From: the human T2T-CHM13v2.0 reference genome, Homo sapiens
NCBI RefSeq assembly: GCF_009914755.1
Contig: NC_060938.1
Reading direction: 5' to 3' (one strand)
DNA length: 64,000 bases
Both the position numbers and the translations under genes were made by a program. The notes below the pieces were generated by a model. It was not told the DNA's origin. It was given only the letters and a program-made list of their open reading frames with translations, and did no database searches. Below, one piece after another: positions 2 through 33,751 of this stretch (position 1 is its first letter; each line of letters begins with the position of its first letter).

Positions 2-2365
2 GTCTTGGGAGATTATGAGCGGTCCCTCAGCCCTGACTCCTCAAGATTCATGCCTGCCTCACCCAGCTTCTCCCTCTCCCCTCCCAGAAACTCAGACCCA
101 AGGGGCAGCTCCTCACCAGGGATGTGGAAGTCCTCTACATCATCCCGCAGGGCTTCACCACTCTCACATCCGTCATCAACAGAATTCCACAACTTTACGT
201 TTCCCTTTCCTAATCAAGCAGGACAGTCACTCATGTCATTGTGTTCTCCTGTGACCTCCTCTGGAGATTCTTCACAGTCACCTCATTCATCAATAATATA
301 CCATATGTTCTTATTGCCATCATCCAGCAGCTCACCCCCAGCCACCCATGACTCTCCTGTCTGTCCCAGCTACTCTCCAACTACGCCCAGATTTCAGCGG
401 GAGTCTGTACCCCACACCCCAGAAACACCTACAAACTCACAGACCTCAGTGAGATCCTCGCCAGTCTCTCTCACGTCTTCACCCCCAGCCCTTACGGACC
501 CTCCAGTCTGTCCCAGCTACTCTCCAACCACGCCCACATTTCAGCGCGGGTCAGTTCCAGAAACCCAGGGATCACCACCAAGCCCACCGCTTTCACTGAG
601 TTACTCCCCAGTCTCTAGCACGTCTTTATCTCCAACCCTCAGGGACTCGCCTGTCTGTCCCAGCTACTCTCCAAACACGCCCACACTTCAGCGGGAGTCC
701 GTTGCAGGCACCCAGAAGTCACCACCAAACTCACCAATTTCACTGCGTTACTCCCCAGTCTCTCTCATGTCTTCACCATCCCTCAGGGACTCTCCCGTCT
801 GTCCCAGCTACTCTCCAACCACGCCCACATTTCAGCTGGAGTCAGTTCCAGGCACCCCGGAATCACCACCAAACTCACCAATTTCACTCAGTTACTCCCC
901 AGTCTCTAGCACGTCTTTATCTCCAACCCTCAGGGACTCTCCTGTGTGTCCCAGCTACTCTCCAACCACGCCCACACTTCAGCGGGAGTCAGTTCCAGGC
1001 ACCCAGGAATCACCACCAAACTCACCAATTTCACTCAATTACTCTCCAGTCTCTCTCGTGTCTTCACCAGCCCTCAGGGACTCTCCTGTCTGTCCCAGCT
1101 ACTCTACAACCACGCCCACATTTCAGCTGGAGTCAGTTCCAGGCACCCCGGAGTCACCACCAAACTCACCAGTTTCACTCAGTTACTCCCCGGTCTCTCT
1201 CATGTCTTCACCCCCAGCCCTCAGGGACTCTCCTGTGCGTCCCAGCTACTCTCCAACCATGCCCAGATTCCAGCGGGAGTCAGTTCCAGGCACCCATGTA
1301 TCACCACCAAACTCAGCAGTTTCACTGAGTTACTCCCCAGTCTCTCTCATGTCTTCACCCCCAGACCCCTGGGACTCTCCTGTCTGTCCCAGCTACTCTC
1401 CCACCACGCCCAGATTTCAGCGGGAGTCAGCCTCCCACACTCCGGAATCAGATACAGACTCACAGACTTCACTGAACTCCTCCCTGGTCTCTCTCAGGTC
1501 TTTGCCCTCATCCCACAGGGACTCTTGTGTCTCTTTCAGCTACTCTCAAAACTTCTCTAGATTCCAGCTGGAGTCAGTTCCAGGCACCCACGATACACCA
1601 CCGAACTCACGAATTTCACTGACTTACGCCCCAGTCTCCCTCATGTTCTCACCCCCAGCCCTCAGGGACTCTTCTGTCTCTCTCAGCTACTCTCCAACCA
1701 TCTCCAGATTTCACCTGGAGTCAGCTTCCCACACCCTGGAATCACCTGCAAACTCACGGACCTTACTGCAACCATCCCCCATTTCTTTCACCTCTTCACC
1801 CCCTGCCTTCAGGGACTCTCCTGGGTCTCCCAGCTTCTCTCCAGCCTTCCCCAGATTTCTGCCACAGTCAGCCCCAGGCACCCAGGACAACCCTAGACAC
1901 TCACAGGCCTCACCAGACTATCTCCCTATGACCTGTACCTATACAGGGATGGCTCCCACGCATCCCTCAGTGACCCCAAACCCATCTCCACTTACACTCA
2001 GGCACTCCCAGGGCCTGACAGCTACTCCCCGTTATTGTCCTTCAGTTCGAAGCCCTGGCCAATCTACTAGCCCACATGACGCAGTTACCTGGCCATTTCT
2101 CCACGGTTCCCGGGAGGGCCCCACACCCAGCCGCACAAGAGCCCCTCCTGCATTCCGTCCTCACACGCAGGCCTGTCCATCTACTTGCTACTGTCACACT
2201 CTTGCCAGCAGAAGAGGCCCCTGTAATGGCCGATATCACCACCCAGTCTATCCTCACCCCACAGCTGTGCAGCGGGAACCCCCTGCTGGCCCACGTGGCT
2301 GCCACAGCCCATGCTGGCACGACGCTCCAGCAGGTCGGCGTCCCTGCGGGCCAAACTACCGGTGA
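2..2365 (+). CDS. Ser/Pro-rich 49-aa-repeat protein with CTD-like YSPTTP motifs, copy 1 (5' end cut off by the window edge)
   Basis: Open frame matching aa ~208-993 of the other copies; ends at TGA 2363-2365. The true ATG lies upstream of the window. Confidence 0.55.
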   Translation, partial: VLGDYERSLSPDSSRFMPASPSFSLSPPRNSDPRGSSSPGMWKSSTSSRRASPLSHPSSTEFHNFTFPFPNQAGQSLMSLCSPVTSSGDSSQSPHSSIIYHMFLLPSSSSSPPATHDSPVCPSYSPTTPRFQRESVPHTPETPTNSQTSVRSSPVSLTSSPPALTDPPVCPSYSPTTPTFQRGSVPETQGSPPSPPLSLSYSPVSSTSLSPTLRDSPVCPSYSPNTPTLQRESVAGTQKSPPNSPISLRYSPVSLMSSPSLRDSPVCPSYSPTTPTFQLESVPGTPESPPNSPISLSYSPVSSTSLSPTLRDSPVCPSYSPTTPTLQRESVPGTQESPPNSPISLNYSPVSLVSSPALRDSPVCPSYSTTTPTFQLESVPGTPESPPNSPVSLSYSPVSLMSSPPALRDSPVRPSYSPTMPRFQRESVPGTHVSPPNSAVSLSYSPVSLMSSPPDPWDSPVCPSYSPTTPRFQRESASHTPESDTDSQTSLNSSLVSLRSLPSSHRDSCVSFSYSQNFSRFQLESVPGTHDTPPNSRISLTYAPVSLMFSPPALRDSSVSLSYSPTISRFHLESASHTLESPANSRTLLQPSPISFTSSPPAFRDSPGSPSFSPAFPRFLPQSAPGTQDNPRHSQASPDYLPMTCTYTGMAPTHPSVTPNPSPLTLRHSQGLTATPRYCPSVRSPGQSTSPHDAVTWPFLHGSREGPTPSRTRAPPAFRPHTQACPSTCYCHTLASRRGPCNGRYHHPVYPHPTAVQREPPAGPRGCHSPCWHDAPAGRRPCGPNYR
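330..1930 (+). repeat. 147-bp tandem satellite (ACRO1-type) core in unit 1; recurs inside every ORF copy
   Basis: The CAGCTACTCTCC-type motif has its TAC/TTC codon at 371, 518, 665, 809, 956, 1100, 1247, 1394, 1541, 1688 and 1835 (spacing 147 or 144). The 147-bp period and 6-kb composite context match ACRO1 as I recall it. Confidence 0.88.
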
Positions 2366-4791: not shown

Positions 4792-4802
4792 TGATTGGAT
4801 TA
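4792..4802 (-). promoter_or_regulatory. DUX4/DUX-family consensus site TAATCCAATCA (TGATTGGATTA on +), one per unit
   Basis: Exact match to TAAYYYAATCA; also at 11080, 17356, 23632, 29909, 36200, 42488, 48784, 55085 and 61374. Confidence 0.5.
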
Positions 4803-5269
4803 TCTGGAGCCACACCTTGATATTCCTAACCCGAGCACCCTCATCCAACGAATGCTCCACCCAACTGGCTCCCAAGTCTCTACGTGGTTCCAGAGCAAAA
4901 GGATGTTGATACAACGCATATCTCCACCTTTTCTTCAAAGTCTTTTCGCTTACACGGAAAGACTTCTTCAACTGCCATGCATCAGGGTCAGGGGGAGGTC
5001 TTGTTACAACACAGATCTGCGGATCTCCGGCATTTGACTGTGGCAAGGATGCTGCTGGTGTCAAAACCACAACGTGGGAACCACAGAACCACTAGTGGGT
5101 TTTCAGTGTTTCAGTGCATACAATTCCTAATATATCTGGCTAAGAAAACTTGTAAGTTCTTAGATTGTCCCAAAGGTGGCGCATGAAATCAAAGCAGGAG
5201 AACAGTTTCCTACGAGGTGTAGCCTGGGAAAGTTGGGGGTGACTGATGGAAAGGAGGAGTGAAGCTCCA

Positions 5270-5450
5270 CCCTTTCCGCTGCTAGGCTGCGCCCGAGGCA
5301 ATTTAAACCCACCCTGGCTGGCCTGTACTCAGATCTTCGCGGAGCGGATCAGCGGCCGGAGCGTTTGGCGGACTCTGCGTGGACTTGGAGCTCACAGCGT
5401 CTTGCGACTTGGAAGCGGATTCAGAGGACAGGACAGAACACTTGGACAAG
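5270..5450 (+). promoter_or_regulatory. Putative core promoter and CpG-rich non-coding first exon
   Basis: (A/T)ATTTAAA at 5300, Inr-consensus TCAGATC with its A at 5331 (31 bp apart), a dense CpG cluster at 5275-5420, and donor-like CAA|GTGAAT at 5450. Confidence 0.5.
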
Positions 5451-5456
5451 TGAATC

Positions 5457-5486
<30 letters not shown>
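5457..5486. repeat. (TCTG)n microsatellite, 6-8 units depending on copy
   Basis: Directly visible; 7 units here, 6 near 30575, 8 near 49449 (one unit variant) and 55750. Confidence 0.92.
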
Positions 5487-5487
<1 letters not shown>

Positions 5488-5536
5488 CATTGGTTGGTTG
5501 ATTTCCATTTTCTTAAGGGGCACATACCTCACACCG

Positions 5537-5595
5537 CACACACACAAACACACACACGCACACACACACACACACGCACACACACGCACACACAC
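5537..5595. repeat. Interrupted (CA)n microsatellite just upstream of each ATG
   Basis: Directly visible; recurs in every unit. Confidence 0.92.
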
Positions 5596-5656
5596 TCCTT
5601 CCTTCTGCGAGTTAGAACATTAGTAGGGGCCCCTGGGAGCTGCAGGTTTCCTAAAC

Positions 5657-8638
5657 ATGTCTGCACCTAAGAACAGTAGGGTCTTGTCTGGCTCTTCTTA
5701 TGAACGGTCCCCCAGCCCGGACTCCCCAAGGTCCATGCGAGCCTCACCCAGCTTCTCCCTCTCCCCTCTCAGAAACTCACGCTTAAGGGGAAGCTCCTCA
5801 CCAGGGATCCGGAGCTACCATTCACCATCCCCTAGGGCTTCACCACACTCACCTCTGTCATCACCAGAATCCCACAAGCTCCCATTTCCCTGTCCTCACC
5901 GTGATGGGCAATCAATAAAGCCATTGGGCTCTCCCGTGTCCTCCTCTGAGGAATCCTCAGAGTCCCCACGTTCATCAATAATATACCACATGTTCTTACT
6001 GCCATCACCCAGCAGCTCACCCCCAGCTCTCGGGGGGTCTCCTGTGTCTCCCAGCTACTCTCCAAACAACCCCAGATTTCAGCTGCGGTCAGCCCCCCAC
6101 ACCAAGGAATCACCTACAAACTCACGAGCCTCACTTTTCTCCACCCCTGTGTCTTTCATCTCTTCACCCCCAGGCCTCAGGGACTCTCCTGTGGCTCCCA
6201 GTTACTCTCCAGCCATCCCCAGGTTCCTGCGGGAGTCAGCCCCATACACCCAGGAGTCCCCCAGAGACTCACAAGTCTTGGGAGTTTATAAGCGGTCCCT
6301 CAGCCCTGACTCCTCAAGATTCATGCCTGCCTCACCCAGCTCCTCCCTCTCCCCTCCCAGAAACTCAGACCCAAGGGGCAGCTCCTCACCAGGGATGTGG
6401 AAGTCCTCTACATCATCCCGCAGGGCTTCACCACTCTCACATCCGTCATCAACAGAATTTCACAACTTTACGTTTCCCTTTCCTAACCAAGCAGGACAAT
6501 CACTCATGTCATTGTGTTCTCCCGTGACCTCCTCTGGAGATTCTTCACAGTCACCTCATTCATCAATAATATACCATATGTTCTTACTGCCATCATCCAG
6601 CAGCTCACCCCCAGCCACCCATGACTCTCCTGTCTGTCCCAGCTACTCTCCAACTACGCCCAGATTTCAGCGGGAGTCTGTACCCCACACCCCAGAAACA
6701 CCTACAAACTCACAGACCTCAGTGAGATCCTCGCCAGTCTCTCTCACGTCTTCACCCCCAGCCCTTACGGACCCTCCAGTCTGTCCCAGCTGCTCTCCAA
6801 CCACGCCCACATTTCAGCGCGGGTCAGTTCCAGGAACCCAGGGATCACCTCCAAGCCCACCGCTTTCACTGAGTTACTCCCCAGTCTCTAGCACGTCTTT
6901 ATCTCCAACCCTCAGGGACTCGCCTGTCTGTCCCAGCTACTCTCCAAACACGCCCACACTTCAGCGGGAGTCCGTTGCAGGCACCCAGAAGTCACCACCA
7001 AACTCACCAATTTCACTGCGTTACTCCCCAGTCTCTCTCATGTCTTCACCATCCCTCAGGGACTCTCCCGTCTGTCCCAGCTACTCTCCAACCACGCCCA
7101 CATTTCAGCTGGAGTCAGTTCCAGGCACCCCGGAATCACCACCAAACTCACCAATTTCACTCAGTTACTCCCCAGTCTCTAGCACGTCTTTATCTCCAAC
7201 CCTCAGGGACTCTCCTGTGTGTCCCAGCTACTCTCCAACCACGCCCACACTTCAGTGGGAGTCAGTTCCAGGCACCCAGGAATCACCACCAAACTCACCA
7301 ATTTCACTCAATTACTCTCCAGTCTCTCTCGTGTCTTCACCAGCCCTCAGGGACTCTCCTGTCTGTCCCAGCTACTCTACAACCACGCCCACATTTCAGC
7401 TGGAGTCAGTTCCAGGCACCCCGGAGTCACCACCAAACTCACCAGTTTCACTCAGTTACTCCTCGGTCTCTCTCATGTCTTCACCCCCAGCCCTCAGGGA
7501 CTCTCCTGTGCGTCCCAGCTACTCTCCAACCATGCCCAGATTCCAGCGGGAGTCAGTTCCAGGCACCCATGTATCACCACCAAACTCAGCAGTTTCACTG
7601 AGTTACTCCCCAGTCTCTCTCATGTCTTCACCCCCAGACCCCTGGGACTCTCCTGTCTGTCCCAGCTACTCTCCCACCACGCCCAGATTTCAGCGGCAGT
7701 CAGCCTCCCACACTCCGGAATCAGATACAGACTCACAGACTTCACTGAACTCCTCCCTGGTCTCTCTCAGGTCTTTGCCCTCATCCCACAGGGACTCTTG
7801 TGTCTCTTTCAGCTACTCTCAAAACTTCTCTAGATTCCAGCTGGAGTCAGTTCCAGGCACCCACGATACACCACCGAACTCACGAATTTCACTGACTTAC
7901 GCCCCAGTCTCCCTCATGTTCTCACCCCCAGCCCTCAGGGACTCTTCTGTCTCTCTCAGCTACTCTCCAACCATCTCCAGATTTCACCTGGAGTCAGCTT
8001 CCCACACCCTGGAATCACCTGCAAACTCACGGACCTTACTGCAACCATCCCCCATTTCTTTCACCTCTTCACCCCCTGCCTTCAGGGACTCTCCTGGGTC
8101 TCCCAGCTTCTCTCCAGCCTTCCCCAGATTTCTGCCACAGTCAGCCCCAGGCACCCAGGACAACCCTAGACACTCACAGGCCTCACCAGACTATCTCCCT
8201 ATGACCTGTACCTATACAGGGATGGCTCCCACGCATCCCTCAGTGACCCCAAACCCATCTCCACTTACACTCAGGCACTCCCAGGGCCTGACAGCTACTC
8301 CCCGTTATTGTCCTTCAGTTCGAAGCCCTGGCCAATCTACTAGCCCACATGACGCAGTTACCTGGCCATTTCTCCACGGTTCCCGGGAGGGCCCCACACC
8401 CAGCCGCACAAGAGCCCCTCCTGCATTCCGTCCTCACACGCAGGCCTGTCCATCTACTTGCTACTGTCACACTCTTGCCAGCAGAAGAGGCCCCTGTAAT
8501 GGCCGATATCACCACCCAGTCTATCCTCACCCCACAGCTGTGCAGCGGGAACCCCCTGCTGGCCCACGTGGCTGCCACAGCCCATGCTGGCACGACGCTC
8601 CAGCAGGTCGGCGTCCCTGCGGGCCAAACTACCGGTGA
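5657..8638 (+). CDS. 993-aa Ser/Pro-rich repeat protein (ACRO1-encoded, Pol II CTD-like motifs), copy 2
   Basis: Uninterrupted 2982-bp ORF; ATG in AAACATGT context; monomer length changes are multiples of 3. Confidence 0.6.
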   Translation: MSAPKNSRVLSGSSYERSPSPDSPRSMRASPSFSLSPLRNSRLRGSSSPGIRSYHSPSPRASPHSPLSSPESHKLPFPCPHRDGQSIKPLGSPVSSSEESSESPRSSIIYHMFLLPSPSSSPPALGGSPVSPSYSPNNPRFQLRSAPHTKESPTNSRASLFSTPVSFISSPPGLRDSPVAPSYSPAIPRFLRESAPYTQESPRDSQVLGVYKRSLSPDSSRFMPASPSSSLSPPRNSDPRGSSSPGMWKSSTSSRRASPLSHPSSTEFHNFTFPFPNQAGQSLMSLCSPVTSSGDSSQSPHSSIIYHMFLLPSSSSSPPATHDSPVCPSYSPTTPRFQRESVPHTPETPTNSQTSVRSSPVSLTSSPPALTDPPVCPSCSPTTPTFQRGSVPGTQGSPPSPPLSLSYSPVSSTSLSPTLRDSPVCPSYSPNTPTLQRESVAGTQKSPPNSPISLRYSPVSLMSSPSLRDSPVCPSYSPTTPTFQLESVPGTPESPPNSPISLSYSPVSSTSLSPTLRDSPVCPSYSPTTPTLQWESVPGTQESPPNSPISLNYSPVSLVSSPALRDSPVCPSYSTTTPTFQLESVPGTPESPPNSPVSLSYSSVSLMSSPPALRDSPVRPSYSPTMPRFQRESVPGTHVSPPNSAVSLSYSPVSLMSSPPDPWDSPVCPSYSPTTPRFQRQSASHTPESDTDSQTSLNSSLVSLRSLPSSHRDSCVSFSYSQNFSRFQLESVPGTHDTPPNSRISLTYAPVSLMFSPPALRDSSVSLSYSPTISRFHLESASHTLESPANSRTLLQPSPISFTSSPPAFRDSPGSPSFSPAFPRFLPQSAPGTQDNPRHSQASPDYLPMTCTYTGMAPTHPSVTPNPSPLTLRHSQGLTATPRYCPSVRSPGQSTSPHDAVTWPFLHGSREGPTPSRTRAPPAFRPHTQACPSTCYCHTLASRRGPCNGRYHHPVYPHPTAVQREPPAGPRGCHSPCWHDAPAGRRPCGPNYR
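6020..8200 (+). repeat. 147-bp ACRO1-type monomer array in unit 2 (complete example, including diverged 5' monomers)
   Basis: SYSP Tyr codons fall at aa 134, 183, 330, 379, 428 and onward, in 49-aa (147-bp) phase. Confidence 0.85.
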
Positions 8639-11944: not shown

Positions 11945-14926
11945 ATGTCTGCACCTAAGAACAGTAGGGTCTTGTCTGGCTCTTCTTATGAACGGTCCCC
12001 CAGCCCGGACTCCCCAAGGTCCATGCGAGCCTCACCCAGCTTCTCCCTCTCCCCTCTCAGAAACTCAGGCTTAAGGGGAAGCTCCTCACCAGGGATCGGG
12101 AGCTACCATTCACCATCCCCTAGGGCTTCACCACACTCACCTCTGTCATCACCAGAATCCCACAAGCTCCCATTTCCCTGTCCTCACCGTGATGGGCAAT
12201 CAATAAAGCCATTGGGCTCTCCCGTGTCCTCCTCTGAGGAATCCTCAGAGTCCCCACGTTCATCAATAATATACCACATGTTCTTACTGCCATCACCCAG
12301 CAGCTCACCCCCAGCTCTCGGGGGGTCTCCTGTGTCTCCCAGCTACTCTCCAAACAACCCCAGATTTCAGCTGCGGTCAGCCCCCCACACCAAGGAATCA
12401 CCTACAAACTCACGAGCCTCACTTTTCTCCACCCCTGTGTCTTTCATCTCTTCACCCCCAGGCCTCAGGGACCCTCCTGTGGCTCCCAGTTACTCTCCAG
12501 CCATCCCCAGGTTCCTGCGCGAGTCAGCCCCATACACCCAGGAGTCCCCCAGAGACTCACAGGTCTTGGGAGATTATGAGCGGTCCCTCAGCCCTGACTC
12601 CTCAAGATTCATGCCTGCCTCACCCAGCTTCTCCCTCTCCCCTCCAAGAAACTCAGACCCAAGGGGCAGCTCCTCACCAGGGATGTGGAAGTCCTCTACA
12701 TCATCCCGCAGGGCTTCACCACTCTCACATCCGTCATCAACAGAATTCCACAACTTTACGTTTCCCTTTCCTAACCAAGCAGGACAGTCACTCATGTCAT
12801 TGTGTTCTCCCGTGACCTCCTCTGGAGATTCTTCACAGTCACCTCATTCATCAATGATATACCATATGTTCTTACTGCCATCATCCAGCAGCTCACCCCC
12901 AGCCACCCATGACTCTCCTGTCTGTCCCAGCTACTCTCCAACTACGCCCAGATTTCAGCGGGAGTCTCTACCCCACACCCCAGAAACACCTACAAACTCA
13001 CAGACCTCAGTGAGATCCTCGCCAGTCTCTCTCACGTCTTCACCCCCAGCCCTTACGGACCCTCCAGTCTGTCCCAGCTACTCTCCAACCACGCCCACAT
13101 TTCAGCGCGGGTCAGTTCCAGGAACCCAGGGATCACCACCAAGCCCACCGCTTTCACTGAGTTACTCCCCAGTCTCTAGCACGTCTTTATCTCCAACCCT
13201 CAGGGACTCGCCTGTCTGTCCCAGCTACTCTCCAAACACGCCCACACTTCAGCGGGAGTCCGTTGCAGGCACCCAGAAGTCACCACCAAACTCACCAATT
13301 TCACTGCGTTACTCCCCAGTCTCTCTCATGTCTTCACCATCCCTCAGGGACTCTCCCGTCTGTCCCAGCTACTCTCCAACCACGCCCACATTTCAGCTGG
13401 AGTCAGTTCCAGGCACCCCGGAATCACCACCAAACTCACCAATTTCACTCAGTTACTCCCCAGTCTCTAGCACGTCTTTATCTCCAACCCTCAGGGACTC
13501 TCCTGTGTGTCCCAGCTACTCTCCAACCACGCCCACACTTCAGCGGGAGTCAGTTCCAGGCACCCAGGAATCACCACCAAACTCACCAATTTCACTCAAT
13601 TACTCTCCAGTCTCTCTCGTGTCTTCACCAGCCCTCAGGGACTCTCCTGTCTGTCCCAGCTACTCTACAACCACGCCCACATTTCAGCTGGAGTCAGTTC
13701 CAGGCACCCCGGAGTCACCACCAAACTCACCAGTTTCACTCAGTTACTCCTCGGTCTCTCTCATGTCTTCACCCCCAGCCCTCAGGGACTCTCCTGTGCG
13801 TCCCAGCTACTCTCCAACCATGCCCAGATTCCAGCGGGAGTCAGTTCCAGGCACCCATGTATCACCACCAAACTCAGCAGTTTCACTGAGTTACTCCCCA
13901 GTCTCTCTCATGTCTTCACCCCCAGACCCCTGGGACTCTCCTGTCTGTCCCAGCTACTCTCCCACCACGCCCAGATTTCAGCGGCAGTCAGCCTCCCACA
14001 CTCCGGAATCAGATACAGACTCACAGACTTCACTGAACTCCTCCCTGGTCTCTCTCAGGTCTTTGCCCTCATCCCACAGGGACTCTTGTGTCTCTTTCAG
14101 CTACTCTCAAAACTTCTCTAGATTCCAGCTGGAGTCAGTTCCAGGCACCCACGATACACCACCGAACTCACGAATTTCACTGACTTACGCCCCAGTCTCC
14201 CTCATGTTCTCACCCCCAGCCCTCAGGGACTCTTCTGTCTCTCTCAGCTACTCTCCAACCATCTCCAGATTTCACCTGGAGTCAGCTTCCCACACCCTGG
14301 AATCACCTGCAAACTCACGGACCTTACTGCAACCATCCCCCATTTCTTTCACCTCTTCACCCCCTGCCTTCAGGGACTCTCCTGGGTCTCCCAGCTTCTC
14401 TCCAGCCTTCCCCAGATTTCTGCCACAGTCAGCCCCAGGCACCCAGGACAACCCTAGACACTCACAGGCCTCACCAGACTATCTCCCTATGACCTGTACC
14501 TATACAGGGATGGCTCCCACGCATCCCTCAGTGACCCCAAACCCATCTCCACTTACACTCAGGCACTCCCAGGGCCTGACAGCTACTCCCCGTTATTGTC
14601 CTTCAGTTCGAAGCCCTGGCCAATCTACTAGCCCACATGACGCAGTTACCTGGCCATTTCTCCACGGTTCCCGGGAGGGCCCCACACCCAGCCGCACAAG
14701 AGCCCCTCCTGCATTCCGTCCTCACACGCAGGCCTGTCCATCTACTTGCTACTGTCACACTCTTGCCAGCAGAAGAGGCCCCTGTAATGGCCGATATCAC
14801 CACCCAGTCTATCCTCACCCCACAGCTGTGCAGCGGGAACCCCCTGCTGGCCCACGTGGCTGCCACAGCCCATGCTGGCACGACGCTCCAGCAGGTCGGC
14901 GTCCCTGCGGGTCAAACTACCGGTGA
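11945..14926 (+). CDS. 993-aa Ser/Pro-rich repeat protein, copy 3 (has upstream TATTTAAA)
   Basis: Intact 2982-bp ORF; TATTTAAA at 11588-11595. Confidence 0.62.
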   Translation: MSAPKNSRVLSGSSYERSPSPDSPRSMRASPSFSLSPLRNSGLRGSSSPGIGSYHSPSPRASPHSPLSSPESHKLPFPCPHRDGQSIKPLGSPVSSSEESSESPRSSIIYHMFLLPSPSSSPPALGGSPVSPSYSPNNPRFQLRSAPHTKESPTNSRASLFSTPVSFISSPPGLRDPPVAPSYSPAIPRFLRESAPYTQESPRDSQVLGDYERSLSPDSSRFMPASPSFSLSPPRNSDPRGSSSPGMWKSSTSSRRASPLSHPSSTEFHNFTFPFPNQAGQSLMSLCSPVTSSGDSSQSPHSSMIYHMFLLPSSSSSPPATHDSPVCPSYSPTTPRFQRESLPHTPETPTNSQTSVRSSPVSLTSSPPALTDPPVCPSYSPTTPTFQRGSVPGTQGSPPSPPLSLSYSPVSSTSLSPTLRDSPVCPSYSPNTPTLQRESVAGTQKSPPNSPISLRYSPVSLMSSPSLRDSPVCPSYSPTTPTFQLESVPGTPESPPNSPISLSYSPVSSTSLSPTLRDSPVCPSYSPTTPTLQRESVPGTQESPPNSPISLNYSPVSLVSSPALRDSPVCPSYSTTTPTFQLESVPGTPESPPNSPVSLSYSSVSLMSSPPALRDSPVRPSYSPTMPRFQRESVPGTHVSPPNSAVSLSYSPVSLMSSPPDPWDSPVCPSYSPTTPRFQRQSASHTPESDTDSQTSLNSSLVSLRSLPSSHRDSCVSFSYSQNFSRFQLESVPGTHDTPPNSRISLTYAPVSLMFSPPALRDSSVSLSYSPTISRFHLESASHTLESPANSRTLLQPSPISFTSSPPAFRDSPGSPSFSPAFPRFLPQSAPGTQDNPRHSQASPDYLPMTCTYTGMAPTHPSVTPNPSPLTLRHSQGLTATPRYCPSVRSPGQSTSPHDAVTWPFLHGSREGPTPSRTRAPPAFRPHTQACPSTCYCHTLASRRGPCNGRYHHPVYPHPTAVQREPPAGPRGCHSPCWHDAPAGRRPCGSNYR

Positions 14927-18220: not shown

Positions 18221-21202
18221 ATGTCTGCACCTAAGAACAGTAGGGTCTTGTCTGGCTCTTCTTATGAACGGTCCCCCAGCCCGGACTCCCCAAGGTCCAT
18301 GCGAGCCTCACCCAGCTTCTCCCTCTCCCCTCTCAGAAACTCAGGCTTAAGGGGAAGCTCCTCACCAGGGATCGGGAGCTACCATTCACCATCCCCTAGG
18401 GCTTCACCACACTCACCTCTGTCATCACCAGAATCCCACAAGCTCCCATTTCCCTGTCCTCACCGTGATGGGCAATCAATAAAGCCATTGGGCTCTCCCG
18501 TGTCCTCCTCTGAGGAATCCTCAGAGTCCCCACGTTCATCAATAATATACCACATGTTCTTACTGCCATCACCCAGCAGCTCACCCCCAGCTCTCGGGGG
18601 GTCTCCTGTGTCTCCCAGCTACTCTCCAAACAACCCCAGATTTCAGCTGCGGTCAGCCCCCCACACCAAGGAATCACCTACAAACTCACCAGCCTCACGC
18701 TGCTCCACCCCTGTGTCTTTCATCTCTTCACCCCCAGGCCTCAGGGACCCTCCTGTGGCTCCCAGTTACTCTCCAGCCATCCCCAGGTTCCTGCGCGAGT
18801 CAGCCCCATACACCCAGGAGTCCCCCAGAGACTCACAGGTCTTGGGAGATTATGAGCGGTCCCTCAGCCCTGACTCCTCAAGATTCATGCCTGCCTCACC
18901 CAGCTTCTCCCTCTCCCCTCCCAGAAACTCAGACCCAAGGGGCAGCTCCTCACCAGGGATGTGGAAGTCCTCTACATCATCCCGCAGGGCTTCACCACTC
19001 TCACATCCGTCATCAACAGAATTCCACAACTTTACGTTTCCCTTTCCTAACCAAGCAGGACAGTCACTCATGTCATTGTGTTCTCCCGTGACCTCCTCTG
19101 GAGATTCTTCACAGTCACCTCATTCATCAATAATATACCATATGTTCTTACTGCCATCATCCAGCAGCTCACCCCCAGCCACCCATGACTCTCCTGTCTG
19201 TCCCAGCTACTCTCCAACTACGCCCAGATTTCAGCGGGAGTCTGTACCCCACACCCCAGAAACACCTACAAACTCACAGACCTCAGTGAGATCCTCGCCA
19301 GTCTCTCTCACGTCTTCACCCCCAGCCCTTACGGACCCTTCAGTCTGTCCCAGCTACTCTCCAACCACGCCCACATTTCAGCGCGGGTCAGTTCCAGGAA
19401 CCCAGGGATCACCACCAAGCCCACCGCTTTCACTGAGTTACTCCCCAGTCTCTAGCACGTCTTTATCTCCAACCCTCAGGGACTCGCCTGTCTGTCCCAG
19501 CTACTCTCCAAACACGCCCACACTTCAGCGGGAGTCCGTTGCAGGCACCCAGAAGTCACCACCAAACTCACCAATTTCACTGCGTTACTCCCCAGTCTCT
19601 CTCATGTCTTCACCATCCCTCAGGGACTCTCCCGTCTGTCCCAGCTACTCTCCAACCACGCCCACATTTCAGCTGGAGTCAGTTCCAGGCACCCCGGAAT
19701 CACCACCAAACTCACCAATTTCACTCAGTTACTCCCCAGTCTCTAGCACGTCTTTATCTCCAACCCTCAGGGACTCTCCTGTGTGTCCCAGCTACTCTCC
19801 AACCACGCCCACACTTCAGCGGGAGTCAGTTCCAGGCACCCAGGAATCACCACCAAACTCACCAATTTCACTCAATTACTCTCCAGTCTCTCTCGTGTCT
19901 TCACCAGCCCTCAGGGACTCTCCTGTCTGTCCCAGCTACTCTACAACCACGCCCACATTTCAGCTGGAGTCAGTTCCAGGCACCCCGGAGTCACCACCAA
20001 ACTCACCAGTTTCACTCAGTTACTCCTCGGTCTCTCTCATGTCTTCACCCCCAGCCCTCAGGGACTCTCCTGTGCGTCCCAGCTACTCTCCAACCATGCC
20101 CAGATTCCAGCGGGAGTCAGTTCCAGGCACCCATGTATCACCACCAAACTCAGCAGTTTCACTGAGTTACTCCCCAGTCTCTCTCATGTCTTCACCCCCA
20201 GACCCCTGGGACTCTCCTGTCTGTCCCAGCTACTCTCCCACCACGCCCAGATTTCAGCGGGAGTCAGCCTCCCACACTCCGGAATCAGATACAGACTCAC
20301 AGACTTCACTGAACTCCTCCCTGGTCTCTCTCAGGTCTTTGCCCTCATCCCACAGGGACTCTTGTGTCTCTTTCAGCTACTCTCAAAACTTCTCTAGATT
20401 CCAGCTGGAGTCAGTTCCAGGCACCCACGATACACCACCGAACTCACGAATTTCACTGACTTACGCCCCAGTCTCCCTCATGTTCTCACCCCCAGCCCTC
20501 AGGGACTCTTCTGTCTCTCTCAGCTACTCTCCAACCATCTCCAGATTTCACCTGGAGTCAGCTTCCCACACCCTGGAATCACCTGCAAACTCACGGACCT
20601 TACTGCAACCATCCCCCATTTCTTTCACCTCTTCACCCCCTGCCTTCAGGGACTCTCCTGGGTCTCCCAGCTTCTCTCCAGCCTTCCCCAGATTTCTGCC
20701 ACAGTCAGCCCCAGGCACCCAGGACAACCCTAGACACTCACAGGCCTCACCAGACTATCTCCCTATGACCTGTACCTATACAGGGATGGCTCCCACGCAT
20801 CCCTCAGTGACCCCAAACCCATCTCCACTTACACTCAGGCACTCCCAGGGCCTGACAGCTACTCCCCGTTATTGTCCTTCAGTTCGAAGCCCTGGCCAAT
20901 CTACTAGCCCACATGACGCAGTTACCTGGCCATTTCTCCACGGTTCCCGGGAGGGCCCCACACCCAGCCGCACAAGAGCCCCTCCTGCATTCCGTCCTCA
21001 CACGCAGGCCTGTCCATCTACTTGCTACTGTCACACTCTTGCCAGCAGAAGAGGCCCCTGTAATGGCCGATATCACCACCCAGTCTATCCTCACCCCACA
21101 GCTGTGCAGCGGGAAGCCCCTGCTGGCCCACGTGGCTGCCACAGCCCATGCTGGCACGACGCTCCAGCAGGTCGGCGTCCCTGCGGGCCAAACTACCGGT
21201 GA
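18221..21202 (+). CDS. 993-aa Ser/Pro-rich repeat protein, copy 4
   Basis: Intact 2982-bp ORF. Confidence 0.6.
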   Translation: MSAPKNSRVLSGSSYERSPSPDSPRSMRASPSFSLSPLRNSGLRGSSSPGIGSYHSPSPRASPHSPLSSPESHKLPFPCPHRDGQSIKPLGSPVSSSEESSESPRSSIIYHMFLLPSPSSSPPALGGSPVSPSYSPNNPRFQLRSAPHTKESPTNSPASRCSTPVSFISSPPGLRDPPVAPSYSPAIPRFLRESAPYTQESPRDSQVLGDYERSLSPDSSRFMPASPSFSLSPPRNSDPRGSSSPGMWKSSTSSRRASPLSHPSSTEFHNFTFPFPNQAGQSLMSLCSPVTSSGDSSQSPHSSIIYHMFLLPSSSSSPPATHDSPVCPSYSPTTPRFQRESVPHTPETPTNSQTSVRSSPVSLTSSPPALTDPSVCPSYSPTTPTFQRGSVPGTQGSPPSPPLSLSYSPVSSTSLSPTLRDSPVCPSYSPNTPTLQRESVAGTQKSPPNSPISLRYSPVSLMSSPSLRDSPVCPSYSPTTPTFQLESVPGTPESPPNSPISLSYSPVSSTSLSPTLRDSPVCPSYSPTTPTLQRESVPGTQESPPNSPISLNYSPVSLVSSPALRDSPVCPSYSTTTPTFQLESVPGTPESPPNSPVSLSYSSVSLMSSPPALRDSPVRPSYSPTMPRFQRESVPGTHVSPPNSAVSLSYSPVSLMSSPPDPWDSPVCPSYSPTTPRFQRESASHTPESDTDSQTSLNSSLVSLRSLPSSHRDSCVSFSYSQNFSRFQLESVPGTHDTPPNSRISLTYAPVSLMFSPPALRDSSVSLSYSPTISRFHLESASHTLESPANSRTLLQPSPISFTSSPPAFRDSPGSPSFSPAFPRFLPQSAPGTQDNPRHSQASPDYLPMTCTYTGMAPTHPSVTPNPSPLTLRHSQGLTATPRYCPSVRSPGQSTSPHDAVTWPFLHGSREGPTPSRTRAPPAFRPHTQACPSTCYCHTLASRRGPCNGRYHHPVYPHPTAVQREAPAGPRGCHSPCWHDAPAGRRPCGPNYR

Positions 21203-24496: not shown

Positions 24497-27478
24497 ATGT
24501 CTGCACCTAAGAACAGTAGGGTCTTGTCTGGCTCTTCTTATGAACGGTCCCCCAGCCCGGACTCCCCAAGGTCCATGCGAGCCTCACCCAGCTTCTCCCT
24601 CTCCCCTCTCAGAAACTCAGGCTTAAGGGGAAGCTCCTCACCAGGGATCGGGAGCTACCATTCACCATCCCCTAGGGCTTCACCACACTCACCTCTGTCA
24701 TCACCAGAATCCCACAAGCTCCCATTTCCCTGTCCTCACCGTGATGGGCAATCAATAAAGCCATTGGGCTCTCCCGTGTCCTCCTCTGAGGAATCCTCAG
24801 AGTCCCCACGTTCATCAATAATATACCACATGTTCTTACTGCCATCACCCAGCAGCTCACCCCCAGCTCTCGGGGGGTCTCCTGTGTCTCCCAGCTACTC
24901 TCCAAACAACCCCAGATTTCAGCTGCGGTCAGCCCCCCACACCAAGGAATCACCTACAAACTCACCAGCCTCACGCTGCTCCACCCCTGTGTCTTTCATC
25001 TCTTCACCCCCAGGCCTCAGGGACCCTCCTGTGGCTCCCAGTTACTCTCCAGCCATCCCCAGGTTCCTGCGCGAGTCAGCCCCATACACCCAGGAGTCCC
25101 CCAGAGACTCACAGGTCTTGGGAGATTATGAGCGGTCCCTCAGCCCTGACTCCTCAAGATTCATGCCTGCCTCACCCAGCTTCTCCCTCTCCCCTCCCAG
25201 AAACTCAGACCCAAGGGGCAGCTCCTCACCAGGGATGTGGAAGTCCTCTACATCATCCCGCAGGGCTTCACCACTCTCACATCCGTCATCAACAGAATTC
25301 CACAACTTTACGTTTCCCTTTCCTAACCAAGCAGGACAGTCACTCATGTCATTGTGTTCTCCCGTGACCTCCTCTGGAGATTCTTCACAGTCACCTCATT
25401 CATCAATAATATACCATATGTTCTTACTGCCATCATCCAGCAGCTCACCCCCAGCCACCCATGACTCTCCTGTCTGTCCCAGCTACTCTCCAACTACGCC
25501 CAGATTTCAGCGGGAGTCTCTACCCCACACCCCAGAAACACCTACAAACTCACAGACCTCAGTGAGATCCTCGCCAGTCTCTCTCACGTCTTCACCCCCA
25601 GCCCTTACGGACCCTCCAGTCTGTCCCAGCTACTCTCCAACCACGCCCACATTTCAGCGCGGGTCAGTTCCAGGAACCCAGGGATCACCACCAAGCCCAC
25701 CGCTTTCACTGAGTTACTCCCCAGTCTCTAGCACGTCTTTATCTCCAACCCTCAGGGACTCGCCTGTCTGTCCCAGCTACTCTCCAAACACGCCCACACT
25801 TCAGCGGGAGTCCGTTGCAGGCACCCAGAAGTCACCACCAAACTCACCAATTTCACTGCGTTACTCCCCAGTCTCTCTCATGTCTTCACCATCCCTCAGG
25901 GACTCTCCCGTCTGTCCCAGCTACTCTCCAACCACGCCCACATTTCAGCTGGAGTCAGTTCCAGGCACCCCGGAATCACCACCAAACTCACCAATTTCAC
26001 TCAGTTACTCCCCAGTCTCTAGCACGTCTTTATCTCCAACCCTCAGGGACTCTCCTGTGTGTCCCAGCTACTCTCCAACCACGCCCACACTTCAGCGGGA
26101 GTCAGTTCCAGGCACCCAGGAATCACCACCAAACTCACCAATTTCACTCAATTACTCTCCAGTCTCTCTCGTGTCTTCACCAGCCCTCAGGGACTCTCCT
26201 GTCTGTCCCAGCTACTCTACAACCACGCCCACATTTCAGCTGGAGTCAGTTCCAGGCACCCCGGAGTCACCACCAAACTCACCAGTTTCACTCAGTTACT
26301 CCTCGGTCTCTCTCATGTCTTCACCCCCAGCCCTCAGGGACTCTCCTGTGCGTCCCAGCTACTCTCCAACCATGCCCAGATTCCAGCGGGAGTCAGTTCC
26401 AGGCACCCATGTATCACCACCAAACTCAGCAGTTTCACTGAGTTACTCCCCAGTCTCTCTCATGTCTTCACCCCCAGACCCCTGGGACTCTCCTGTCTGT
26501 CCCAGCTACTCTCCCACCACGCCCAGATTTCAGCGGCAGTCAGCCTCCCACACTCCGGAATCAGATACAGACTCACAGACTTCACTGAACTCCTCCCTGG
26601 TCTCTCTCAGGTCTTTGCCCTCATCCCACAGGGACTCTTGTGTCTCTTTCAGCTACTCTCAAAACTTCTCTAGATTCCAGCTGGAGTCAGTTCCAGGCAC
26701 CCACGATACACCACCGAACTCACGAATTTCACTGACTTACGCCCCAGTCTCCCTCATGTTCTCACCCCCAGCCCTCAGGGACTCTTCTGGCTCTCTCAGC
26801 TACTCTCCAACCATCTCCAGATTTCACCTGGAGTCAGCTTCCCACACCCTGGAATCACCTGCAAACTCACGGACCTTACTGCAACCATCCCCCATTTCTT
26901 TCACCTCTTCACCCCCTGCCTTCAGGGACTCTCCTGGGTCTCCCAGCTTCTCTCCAGCCTTCCCCAGATTTCTGCCACAGTCAGCCCCAGGCACCCAGGA
27001 CAACCCTAGACACTCACAGGCCTCACCAGACTATCTCCCTATGACCTGTACCTATACAGGGATGGCTCCCACGCATCCCTCAGTGACCCCAAACCCATCT
27101 CCACTTACACTCAGGCACTCCCAGGGCCTGACAGCTACTCCCCGTTATTGTCCTTCAGTTCGAAGCCCTGGCCAATCTACTAGCCCACATGACGCAGTTA
27201 CCTGGCCATTTCTCCACGGTTCCCGGGAGGGCCCCACACCCAGCCGCACAAGAGCCCCTCCTGCATTCCGTCCTCACACGCAGGCCTGTCCATCTACTTG
27301 CTACTGTCACACTCTTGCCAGCAGAAGAGGCCCCTGTAATGGCCGATATCACCACCCAGTCTATCCTCACCCCACAGCTGTGCAGCGGGAACCCCCTGCT
27401 GGCCCACGTGGCTGCCACAGCCCATGCTGGCACGACGCTCCAGCAGGTCGGCGTCCCTGCGGGCCAAACTACCGGTGA
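24497..27478 (+). CDS. 993-aa Ser/Pro-rich repeat protein, copy 5
   Basis: Intact 2982-bp ORF. Confidence 0.6.
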   Translation: MSAPKNSRVLSGSSYERSPSPDSPRSMRASPSFSLSPLRNSGLRGSSSPGIGSYHSPSPRASPHSPLSSPESHKLPFPCPHRDGQSIKPLGSPVSSSEESSESPRSSIIYHMFLLPSPSSSPPALGGSPVSPSYSPNNPRFQLRSAPHTKESPTNSPASRCSTPVSFISSPPGLRDPPVAPSYSPAIPRFLRESAPYTQESPRDSQVLGDYERSLSPDSSRFMPASPSFSLSPPRNSDPRGSSSPGMWKSSTSSRRASPLSHPSSTEFHNFTFPFPNQAGQSLMSLCSPVTSSGDSSQSPHSSIIYHMFLLPSSSSSPPATHDSPVCPSYSPTTPRFQRESLPHTPETPTNSQTSVRSSPVSLTSSPPALTDPPVCPSYSPTTPTFQRGSVPGTQGSPPSPPLSLSYSPVSSTSLSPTLRDSPVCPSYSPNTPTLQRESVAGTQKSPPNSPISLRYSPVSLMSSPSLRDSPVCPSYSPTTPTFQLESVPGTPESPPNSPISLSYSPVSSTSLSPTLRDSPVCPSYSPTTPTLQRESVPGTQESPPNSPISLNYSPVSLVSSPALRDSPVCPSYSTTTPTFQLESVPGTPESPPNSPVSLSYSSVSLMSSPPALRDSPVRPSYSPTMPRFQRESVPGTHVSPPNSAVSLSYSPVSLMSSPPDPWDSPVCPSYSPTTPRFQRQSASHTPESDTDSQTSLNSSLVSLRSLPSSHRDSCVSFSYSQNFSRFQLESVPGTHDTPPNSRISLTYAPVSLMFSPPALRDSSGSLSYSPTISRFHLESASHTLESPANSRTLLQPSPISFTSSPPAFRDSPGSPSFSPAFPRFLPQSAPGTQDNPRHSQASPDYLPMTCTYTGMAPTHPSVTPNPSPLTLRHSQGLTATPRYCPSVRSPGQSTSPHDAVTWPFLHGSREGPTPSRTRAPPAFRPHTQACPSTCYCHTLASRRGPCNGRYHHPVYPHPTAVQREPPAGPRGCHSPCWHDAPAGRRPCGPNYR

Positions 27479-30769: not shown

Positions 30770-33751
30770 ATGTCTGCACCTAAGAACACTAGGGTCTTGT
30801 CTGGCTCTTCTTATGAACGGTCCCCCAGCCCGGACTCCCCAAGGTCCATGCGAGCCTCACCCAGCTTCTCCCTCTCCCCTCTCAGAAACTCAGGCTTAAG
30901 GGGAAGCTCCTCACCAGGGATCGGGAGCTACCATTCACCATCCCCTAGGGCTTCACCACACTCACCTCTGTCATCACCAGAATCCCACAAGCTCCCATTT
31001 CCCTGTCCTCACCGTGATGGGCAATCAATAAAGCCATTGGGCTCTCCCGTGTCCTCCTCTGAGGAATCCTCAGAGTCCCCACGTTCATCAATAATATACC
31101 ACATGTTCTTACTGCCATCACCCAGCAGCTCACCCCCAGCTCTCGGGGGGTCTCCTGTGTCTCCCAGCTACTCTCCAAACAACCCCAGATTTCAGCTGCA
31201 GTCAGCCCCCCACAACAAGGAATCACCTACAAACTCACGAGCCTCACGATGCTCCACCCCCTTGTCTTTCATCTCTTCACCCCCAGGCGTCAGGGTCTCT
31301 CCTGTGGCTCCCAGTTAGTCTCCAGCCATCCGCAGGTTCCTGCGGGAGTCAGGCCCATGCACCCAGGAGTCCCCCAGAGACTCACAGGTCTCGGGAGAAA
31401 GTGAGCGGTCCCCCAGCCCTGACTCCTCAAGATTCATGCCTGCCTCACCCAGCTTCTCCCTCTCCCCTCCCAGAAACTCAGACCCAAGGGGCAGCTCCTC
31501 ACCAGGGATGTGGAAGTCCTCTACATCATCCCGCAGGGCTTCACCACTCTCACATCCGTCATCAACAGAGTTCCACAACTTTATGTTTCCCTTTCCTAAC
31601 CAAGCAGGACAATCACTCATGTCATTGTGTTCTCCCGTGACCTCCTCTGGAGATTCTTCACAGTCACCTCATTCATCAATAATATACCATATGTTCTTAC
31701 TGCCATCATCCAGCAGCTCACCCCCAGCCACCCATGACTCTCCTGTCTGTCCCAGCTACTCTCCAACTACGCCCAGATTTCAGCGGGAGTCTGTACCCCA
31801 CACCCCAGAAACACCTACAAACTCACAGACCTCAGTGAGATCCTCGCCAGTCTCTCTCACGTCTTCACCCCCAGCCCTTACGGACCCTCCAGTCTGTCCC
31901 AGCTACTCTCCAACCACGCCCACATTTCAGCGCGGGTCAGTTCCAGGAACCCAGGGATCACCACCAAGCCCACCGCTTTCACTGAGTTACTCCCCAGTCT
32001 CTAGCACGTCTTTATCTCCAACCCTCAGGGACTCGCCTGTCTGTCCCAGCTACTCTCCAAACACGCCCACACTTCAGCGGGAGTCCGTTGCAGGCACCCA
32101 GAAGTCACCACCAAACTCACCAATTTCACTGCGTTACTCCCCAGTCTCTCTCATGTCTTCACCATCCCTCAGGGACTCTCCCGTCTGTCCCAGCTACTCT
32201 CCAACCACGCCCACATTTCAGCTGGAGTCAGTTCCAGGCACCCCGGAATCACCACCAAACTCACCAATTTCACTCAGTTACTCCCCAGTCTCTAGCACGT
32301 CTTTATCTCCAACCCTCAGGGACTCTCCTGTGTGTCCCAGCTACTCTCCAACCACGCCCACACTTCAGCGGGAGTCAGTTCCAGGCACCCAGGAATCACC
32401 ACCAAACTCACCAATTTCACTCAATTACTCTCCAGTCTCTCTCGTGTCTTCACCAGCCCTCAGGGACTCTCCTGTCTGTCCCAGCTACTCTACAACCACG
32501 CCCACATTTCAGCTGGAGTCAGTTCCAGGCACCCCGGAGTCACCACCAAACTCACCAGTTTCACTCAGTTACTCCTCGGTCTCTCTCATGTCTTCACCCC
32601 CAGCCCTCAGGGACTCTCCTGTGCGTCCCAGCTACTCTCCAACCATGCCCAGATTCCAGCGGGAGTCAGTTCCAGGCACCCATGTATCACCACCAAACTC
32701 AGCAGTTTCACTGAGTTACTCCCCAGTCTCTCTCATGTCTTCACCCCCAGACCCCTGGGACTCTCCTGTCTGTCCCAGCTACTCTCCCACCACGCCCAGA
32801 TTTCAGCGGGAGTCAGCCTCCCACACTCCGGAATCAGATACAGACTCACAGACTTCACTGAACTCCTCCCTGGTCTCTCTCAGGTCTTTGCCCTCATCCC
32901 ACAGGGACTCTTGTGTCTCTTTCAGCTACTCTCAAAACTTCTCTAGATTCCAGCTGGAGTCAGTTCCAGGCACCCACGATACACCACCGAACTCACGAAT
33001 TTCACTGACTTACGCCCCAGTCTCCCTCATGTTCTCACCCCCAGCCCTCAGGGACTCTTCTGGCTCTCTCAGCTACTCTCCAACCATCTCCAGATTTCAC
33101 CTGGAGTCAGCTTCCCACACCCTGGAATCACCTGCAAACTCACGGACCTTACTGCAACCATCCCCCATTTCTTTCACCTCTTCACCCCCTGCCTTCAGGG
33201 ACTCTCCTGGGTCTCCCAGCTTCTCTCCAGCCTTCCCCAGATTTCTGCCACAGTCAGCCCCAGGCACCCAGGACAACCCTAGACACTCACAGGCCTCACC
33301 AGACTATCTCCCTATGACCTGTACCTATACAGGGATGGCTCCCACGCATCCCTCAGTGACCCCAAACCCATCTCCACTTACACTCAGGCACTCCCAGGGC
33401 CTGACAGCTACTCCCCGTTATTGTCCTTCAGTTCGAAGCCCTGGCCAATCTACTAGCCCACATGACGCAGTTACCTGGCCATTTCTCCACGGTTCCCGGG
33501 AGGGCCCCACACCCAGCCGCACAAGAGCCCCTCCTGCATTCCGTCCTCACACGCAGGCCTGTCCATCTACTTGCTACTGTCACACTCTTGCCAGCAGAAG
33601 AGGCCCCTGTAATGGCCGATATCACCACCCAGTCTATCCTCACCCCACAGCTGTGCAGCGGGAACCCCCTGCTGGCCCACGTGGCTGCCACAGCCCATGC
33701 TGGCACGACGCTCCAGCAGGTCGGCGTCCCTGCGGGCCAAACTACCGGTGA
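30770..33751 (+). pseudogene. Copy 6 with nonsense Y183* (TAC>TAG)
   Basis: Same 2982-bp span; TAG at 31316-31318; the frame stays open from ATG 31436 (771 aa). Confidence 0.65.

What the first reader, a model, noticed from the sequence alone, without database searches (positions are those of the whole stretch)
371..1837. All monomer length changes preserve the reading frame (147/144 bp) and no copy has an ORF indel
Seen: monomer spacings are 147,147,144,147,144,147,147,147,147,147 bp. The monomers are visibly diverged from one another, yet intact copies have no stop or frameshift. All unit-length variation (6273-6301 bp) lies in the spacer (microsatellites, T-runs, a 4-bp and a 1-bp indel), while every complete ORF span is 2982 bp. 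Inference: coding constraint acted while the monomers diverged. This is the best internal evidence that the ORF is or was functional.
Basis: seen in the sequence. Interest (0 to 1): 0.72.

Follow-up and report, generated by a model that had tools for sequence, protein, structure and literature searches.

The report
Hidden protein gene inside ACRO satellite
A human repeat filed as satellite DNA carries one long open reading frame per 6.3-kb unit, kept in frame in marmoset and in far more distant relatives, so it is likely an unannotated many-copy gene whose protein would be made in the early embryo.

Summary
Monomer spacings are 147/144 bp, all nine complete ORF spans in the window are 2982 bp, and all unit-length variation lies in the spacer. 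The two 144-bp monomers share one 3-bp deletion, monomer dN/dS is about 1, third-position excess is not significant (P=0.07), and unit-level variation looks neutral. However, neutral simulation rarely keeps all ten monomers free of stops and frameshifts (about 1e-4).

Stronger evidence lies outside the window. A marmoset protein model and an unnamed, far more distant protein (about 46% identity, one monomer) share the start Met, the frame and the Cys/His tail. Dispersed human copies carry 10 disabling changes in about 205 substitutions; arrayed lineages carry 0 in about 244. 117 of 150 scored copies have canonical full-length frames. [quoted passage not shown]

Best reading: ACRO is a protein-coding macrosatellite, and the ACRO1 'satellite' is the 49-codon internal repeat of a disordered Ser/Pro protein with Pol II CTD-like motifs. 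Translation is untested. I found no paper describing the ORF.

The parts
365..1828 (+). Ten ACRO1 monomers of unit 1 (the finding); each is 49 or 48 codons with a CTD-like SPSYSPT-type motif
2..2365 (+). Open frame of unit 1, 5' end outside the window; TGA at 2363-2365
2174..2206 (+). Cys/His motif CPSTCYCHTLA in the non-repeat tail of unit 1 (8447-8479 in unit 2); 11 of 11 identical in P0041
2592..2597 (+). ATTAAA, candidate poly(A) signal 227 nt after the stop (use untested)
   Evidence: sequence
4792..4802 (-). DUX4-type motif (pattern recalled, not from a call), 865 nt upstream of the ATG; one per unit, 10 in the window against 0.24 by chance, but copies of one site
5267..5307 (+). Putative core promoter: GC box and TATA-like box. 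Canonical in dispersed and most other copies; the TATA-like box carries a one-base change in 26 of 30 chr14 loci and the GC box is changed in the window unit examined
5446..5615 (+). Putative short 5'-UTR intron with TCTG and CA microsatellites. Donor is GT in chr19/chr2q21/chr20 copies, GC in most arrays, AC (likely dead) in 29 of 30 chr14 loci. No upstream ATG in the window unit examined
5657..8638 (+). Complete ORF of unit 2, 993 aa: in-frame 588-bp duplicated N-terminal block, 2+10 monomers, Cys/His tail
11945..14926 (+). Intact 993-aa ORF
18221..21202 (+). Intact 993-aa ORF
24497..27478 (+). Intact 993-aa ORF
30770..33751 (+). ORF copy with premature TAG at codon 183
37065..40046 (+). ORF copy with premature TGA at codon 663
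43353..46334 (+). Intact 993-aa ORF
49653..52634 (+). Intact 993-aa ORF
55954..58935 (+). Intact 993-aa ORF
62239..64000 (+). ORF copy cut by the window end, premature stop at codon 183

Best explanation
Each 6.3-kb ACRO unit holds a 993-codon open frame that is colinear with marmoset and more distant proteins, and it is likely a still-active single-coding-exon gene, likely switched on by DUX4 in the cleavage embryo, whose predicted disordered Ser/Pro-rich product would act as a multivalent mimic of the RNA polymerase II tail (CTD). Shown here: the frame, its conservation, decay of dispersed copies, the motifs. From papers: ACRO1 RNA peaks at 4-cell and is DUX4-induced. Inferred: selection keeps the frame, the SPSYSPT motif count and the Cys/His tail, while most residues drift. 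The 147-bp 'satellite' would then be a coding repeat amplified from a single-motif gene like P0041, with the whole gene arrayed on the short arms afterwards. Inferred and untested: translation, phosphorylation by CTD kinases, and binding or titration of CTD readers at genome activation. My odds: long-term coding gene 0.9; still translated and functional in humans 0.6; CTD-mimic action, given that, 0.4.
For: Marmoset model P0004 starts at the same Met; 330 N-terminal residues align at 70-74% with one codon gap (chr14, chr2 copies) and the 162-aa tail at 75-78% without gaps. Neutral survival over those codons is about 1e-6, or 4.5e-4 counting stops only. Unnamed P0041 aligns in one frame over the whole 358-aa human chr2q24 copy at 46-47% with only whole-codon gaps; neutral divergence to that identity gives about 13 stops, and none is seen. 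Human tree of 16 paralogs over 1812 sites: 10 disabling changes on about 205 substitutions in dispersed or 5'-truncated copies, 0 on about 244 in arrayed lineages, and 0 on about 90 along the path to chr14 alone (my sums, P about 4e-4 and 0.026). 117 of 150 copies ranked by the tail have canonical full-length frames. Monomer simulation joint P about 1e-4. Tail motif window more conserved than matched neutral runs (0-1 of 150 at the two closest scales). CTD likeness exceeds composition- and period-matched shuffles (0 of 300, twice). Promoter and DUX4-type motif. Expression passages.
Against: No protein or ribosome evidence was seen. dN/dS is about 1 between monomers and between paralogs (pairwise 0.7-1.7). 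Overall tail conservation and BLOSUM pattern match neutral runs. Within chr14, nonsense alleles occur at the neutral rate (4 of 91 against 2.7 expected). About 60 residues of the marmoset model read in another frame, and its exon structure is unknown. Named colobus and baboon models end at 291 and 282 aa in a shifted frame. Of 9 divergent proteins picked by eye, 4 show frame changes (P0047, P0074, P0078, P0086) and P0084 ends early. Protein databases favour open frames, and 7 of 8 arrayed paralogs were picked by a protein search. chr14 copies have altered TATA, GC box and donor. No exact YSPTSPS heptad and no Pfam CTD match. No stable transcripts in HeLa.
Confidence: 0.58

Rival explanations
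1. The gene was real through most of its history but has lately lost function in humans; the arrays are neutral amplifications of a recent relic, transcribed in embryos only because chromatin is open.
For: Neutral nonsense rate within chr14; dN/dS about 1; promoter and donor changes in chr14 copies; truncated Old World monkey models; no RefSeq gene in the window.
Against: 0 disabling changes on about 90 substitutions along the path to chr14 against 4.4 expected at the orphan rate. Selection per copy is expected to be weak in an array of more than 100 copies (inference), so neutral-looking recent variation does not discriminate.
Confidence: 0.22
2. A translated gene, but the Ser/Pro repeats are a generic disordered phospho-scaffold or structural protein, and the CTD likeness is incidental.
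For: One YSPT-type motif per 49 aa rather than tandem heptads; 0 exact heptads; 99 SP/TP sites; the most conserved block is the Cys/His tail; automatic names vary (RPB1-like, extensin-like).
Against: The SPSYSP-type motif persists in P0041, P0047 and P0052 and is repeated in P0061; CTD similarity exceeds periodic shuffles.
Confidence: 0.3
3. The functional product is RNA (Pol II-binding aptamer, Boots et al.) or DNA structure; the open frame is a by-product of a C-rich strand, a low mutation rate and homogenisation.
For: ACRO1 RNA binds Pol II and inhibits elongation in cis. The plus strand is stop-poor, and two frames of the consensus monomer are open. The ORF region diverges about half as fast as its flanks at both synonymous and non-synonymous sites.
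Against: The other plus frames collect 13 and 17 stops across the ORF; orphan copies of the same sequence do gain stops and frameshifts; frame kept with P0041 and marmoset, including non-repeat parts.
Confidence: 0.08

Closest known systems
ACRO1 satellite / ACRE / ACRO_Comp (Boots 2020 PMC7714431; Hoyt preprint 10.1101/2021.07.12.451456; acrocentric preprint 10.64898/2025.12.22.696095)
   Same: Same element: 147-bp monomer in a 6-kb composite arrayed on the short arms; Boots noted that the translated consensus monomer resembles the CTD (23 of 49).
   Different: In the passages read, none reports a full ORF with start, stop, promoter or conserved homologues. Boots calls it primate-specific and reads it as an RNA aptamer.
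D4Z4/DUX4 and other protein-coding composite arrays (Hoyt: eight composites with coding annotation; RS447/USP17, CT47 and TAF11L recalled, from no call)
   Same: Tandem kilobase unit carrying one gene, concerted evolution, dispersed pseudogenes, embryonic or germline expression.
   Different: Unrelated protein; a nested coding satellite inside the gene; spread over at least seven chromosomes; no annotation in human.
POLR2A C-terminal domain (PF05001)
   Same: YSP/SYSPT motifs, Ser/Pro/Thr-rich disorder, short DNA matches to the CTD exon (up to 92 bp at 70%).
   Different: No tandem heptads, no Pfam match, no polymerase domains; unique N-terminal block and Cys/His tail.
ZNF768 (PMC6344866)
   Same: Placental protein with a CTD-like repeat array of species-variable length.
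   Different: ZNF768 has true heptad arrays and ten C2H2 fingers; this protein has 49-aa units and no known domain.
Automatic primate gene models (marmoset, colobus and baboon 'RPB1(-like)'; Atlas cluster 'putative extensin-like', 993 aa, 70 members)
   Same: Marmoset, colobus and baboon models align to this ORF, so gene predictors already call it in some primates. The Atlas cluster has the same length (score 0.89, a lead only).
   Different: Misnamed by similarity, uncharacterised, and not linked to ACRO1 in anything I read.

Membership tests
ACRO composite repeat | 147-bp monomer array plus a short two-monomer array inside a ~6-kb tandem unit | tested here: met
   description
ACRO composite repeat | L1PA10, MER21B and L1MB8 fragments in the unit | not testable with these tools
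   No Dfam library; names taken
Protein-coding macrosatellite (D4Z4-like) | One long ORF per tandem unit, intact in most copies | tested here: met
   7 of 9 complete window units; 26 of 34 chr14 units; 117 of 150 scored copies
Protein-coding macrosatellite (D4Z4-like) | ORF conserved across species beyond neutral expectation | tested here: met
   protein level only, no non-human DNA available
Protein-coding macrosatellite (D4Z4-like) | Purifying selection on amino acids (dN/dS < 1) | tested here: not met
Protein-coding macrosatellite (D4Z4-like) | Sense mRNA and protein detected | not testable with these tools
   Only repeat-level RNA in papers, strand not stated in the passages seen
RNA polymerase II CTD / RPB1 | Tandem YSPTSPS heptads (PF05001) | tested here: not met
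   0 exact heptads; 0 Pfam families; none of 17 genome matches lies at an ACRO locus seen here
RNA polymerase II CTD / RPB1 | Polymerase catalytic domains | tested here: not met
CTD-like mimic (works like) | Similarity to the CTD above composition and periodicity controls | tested here: met
DUX4 target genes | DUX4 motif upstream of the start | tested here: met
   (motif pattern recalled)
DUX4 target genes | DUX4 binding at this site and induction from this promoter | not testable with these tools
   Papers state induction of ACRO1 transcripts only
Secreted mucin or extensin | Signal peptide or membrane segment | tested here: not met
   Maximum 19-residue hydropathy 0.73

The most novel reading that the evidence does not exclude
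The human acrocentric short arms, plus chr3 and chr4, carry more than 100 intact copies of an unannotated gene that is older than primates. It is a DUX4-activated, CTD-mimicking protein made at embryonic genome activation, and its internal coding repeat has been catalogued for decades as the ACRO1 satellite. It would be among the highest-copy human protein-coding genes and a second concerted-evolution gene array beside rDNA.
Probability: 0.3. Interest if true: 0.93.

Novelty: new member of a known kind. Interest (0 to 1): 0.82.

Why it matters
Human acrocentric short arms are described as gene-poor. An October 2026 preprint calls ACRO the repeat most consistently enriched on great-ape acrocentrics, without an explanation. 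A conserved coding gene inside ACRO would explain that retention and the 4-cell expression peak, and add a missing multicopy family to the human gene set. It would give DUX4 biology (genome activation, FSHD) a new target. It also makes the question testable at once by remapping existing Ribo-seq and proteomics data.

Tried and rejected
Third-position bias and dN/dS<1 were not found. The unit-level indel contrast is marginal. Pfam gave nothing for 7 proteins. The AlphaFold model of the tail from a 9-row alignment had mean pLDDT 50 and pTM 0.11, so no fold search was run; Atlas structure hits for P0004 are all below TM 0.5 by either length. P0041 found only ACRO copies in the human genome (115 matches from 114 of 1519 candidates scored), so no named human paralogue turned up. 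Flanks of the chr19 pair showed no gene ORF that would identify an ancestral locus. Derivation from POLR2A mRNA (Boots) is neither shown nor excluded: short DNA matches exist. The poly(A) offsets printed are mis-anchored except for chr19 and were not used. In one search the downstream alignment included non-homologous flanks of 3 copies; these were dropped (7 of 10 kept). chr2q24 was left out because it lacks the array. Plasmodium-labelled hits (P0019, P0035) were treated as human contamination (inference; compare). The primary DUX4-ACRO1 paper could not be read. Supplements were not read and may mention the ORF.

Full report
1. The observation. The window is an array of ten ACRO units. Each complete unit has a 2982-bp ATG-to-TGA span encoding 993 aa; 7 of 9 are open and 2 have one stop. 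All gaps among the nine units lie in the spacer. The two 144-bp monomers share one 3-nt deletion.

2. Distinct monomer changes by codon position are 35/35/43, and NG86 dN/dS is 0.88. Codon models give omega 0.96-1.30, not different from 1, and the third-position share has P=0.07 under neutral simulation. On the same tree (about 160 substitutions) 7 of 600 runs leave all ten monomers stop-free. With the indel rate seen in the flanks (about 23 non-microsatellite indels per 642 substitutions, my count), 4.9 frameshifts are expected and none is seen; the joint P is about 1e-4. The second frame that is open in the consensus holds 3 stops against 4.9 expected, so the model is not too harsh. Among 31 chr14 copies, 91 ORF alleles are 65 non-synonymous, 22 synonymous and 4 nonsense (2.7 expected). 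There are 0 ORF indels against 4 ordinary indels in the flanks. Recent variation therefore shows no per-copy selection.

3. Human paralogs. All 34 chr14 units matched in one frame and 26 have no stop. Of 150 copies scored from 371 candidates by the tail alone, 117 have canonical full-length frames and 123 have at least 950 codons; they lie on chr3, 13, 14, 15, 21 and 22, and chr4 copies appear. A DNA search (40 of 238 candidates scored) gave seven further dispersed copies: four have frameshifts, two lack the 5' end but show only in-frame gaps, and one (chr2q24) is an intact 358-aa ORF without the array. On a tree of 16 paralogs over 1812 sites, dispersed or truncated branches carry 6 stops and 4 frameshifts on about 205 substitutions. 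Arrayed lineages carry none on about 244, and the path to chr14 none on about 90. Seven of the eight arrayed copies came from a protein search, so the chr14 path (P about 0.026) is the fair figure. Paralog dN/dS is about 1. The ORF also diverges about half as fast as its flanks at silent sites, which I cannot explain; counts were normalised per substitution.

4. Other species. One search returned 5 proteins from 7977 candidates, among them a marmoset model named RPB1 (832 aa). It starts at the same Met, aligns over 330 residues with one codon gap and over a 162-aa tail with none, and ends one codon after the stop seen in the chr19 and chr2q21 copies. About 60 residues read in the +1 frame, a compensated shift or a modelling artefact. 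Searches (43 of 4066; 60 hits) added colobus and baboon models that end early in a shifted frame, titi models of the tail, and unnamed divergent proteins. P0041 matches the whole chr2q24 ORF in one frame at 46-47%, has one monomer and keeps IIYHMF, SPVSPSYSPT and CPSTCYCHTLA. It is about equally distant from all human copies scored. Neutral drift to that identity needs about 0.45 substitutions per site and gives about 13 stops. That distance suggests a non-primate mammal; this is inference, and the source organism is unknown. P0061 has six degenerate monomer-like units (scores 15-35, shuffles at most 9.7) and the tail motif. Four of nine divergent proteins picked by eye show frame changes, consistent with loss in some lineages or with sequence errors. 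Across six tails, overall conservation matches neutral runs, but the best 12-residue window exceeds them (0-1 of 150 at the two closest scales); search ascertainment may inflate this.

5. Anatomy. Upstream of the ATG lie a DUX4-type motif at -865 (pattern recalled), a GC box and TATA-like box, and a candidate 5'-UTR intron. Its donor is GT in old copies, GC in most arrays and AC in 29 of 30 chr14 loci. The window unit examined has no upstream ATG, so an unspliced RNA would give the same protein. An ATTAAA follows 227 nt after the stop. The protein is 24% Ser and 18% Pro, with 99 SP/TP sites, 14 YSP, 7 Lys and no hydrophobic segment. It has no Pfam family and no confident fold in the tail. The N-terminal block is an in-frame 588-bp duplication. 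Similarity to the human POLR2A CTD exceeds composition- and period-matched shuffles, but there is no exact heptad.

6. Mechanism. I infer a cleavage-stage gene induced by DUX4. ACRO1 RNA peaks at 4-cell (PMC6545021, passages), rises in the early embryo and is hypomethylated in the male germline (PMC5832720, passage), and is stated to be DUX4-induced (PMC8990217 and 10.64898/2025.12.22.696056, passages). The product would be a disordered phosphoprotein presenting about a dozen spaced CTD-like motifs and a conserved Cys/His tail. Acting as a decoy or scaffold for CTD kinases and readers is my preferred function, by analogy with ZNF768 (PMC6344866, passages). It is untested.

7. What is known. 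Boots et al. (PMC7714431, passages and section 7) translated the consensus monomer, noted 23 of 49 identity with the CTD, read it as an RNA aptamer and found no non-primate homologue. The acrocentric preprint (passages of two versions) and Hoyt et al. (passages) describe ACRO as a composite repeat without an ORF. The ape-genome preprint's hits were figure labels and the marmoset preprint had none. Searches listed no paper on an ACRO-encoded protein. Subscription journals and supplements were not covered. Automatic models exist in primate databases.

8. Verdict. The feature is real. The frame has been conserved far beyond neutral expectation while amino acids drift. The best reading is a new protein-coding macrosatellite gene family hidden under a satellite annotation. 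Present-day translation and CTD mimicry remain to be shown.

Noticed in passing
L040:3534-4610 (chr2q24): Dispersed copy with promoter, DUX4-type motif and an intact 358-aa ORF lacking the repeat array; close in architecture to P0041. A 98% identical 361-aa protein (P0007) is in the database. Uniquely mappable, so the easiest copy to test.
   Followed up: partly
L031 and L046 (chr19, 47.23-47.28 Mb): Inverted pair of old copies, one with a stop at codon 688 and one frameshifted, both with canonical TATA-like box and GT donor; possible ancestral locus.
   Followed up: partly
window 8588-8590: The TGA found in chr19, chr2q21 and chr20 copies reads TGG in the arrayed family and chr2q24, adding 16 residues; P0041 also runs past this point.
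   Followed up: partly
window 5657-8638 versus flanks: The ORF diverges about half as fast as both flanks among old paralogs, at silent sites too; gene conversion or a lower mutation rate is possible. Unexplained.
   Followed up: partly
G000:C15:101781-145905 and C21:207280-214846: Variant copies with open frames of 1145-1387 codons, and C14:6545 with 1485 codons; length variants not examined.
   Followed up: no
G000:C16:30912683-30912931 (-): A 536-codon frame with PF05001 matches, probably ZNF768 (identification recalled, not checked).
   Followed up: no
P0019, P0035: Plasmodium-labelled database proteins that match the human ACRO ORF, likely host contamination annotated as parasite RPB1 or PIR.
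   Followed up: no
P0086 versus L031 upstream region: A divergent unnamed record translates through the promoter, exon 1 and donor region, so the 5' architecture appears as old as the ORF.
   Followed up: partly
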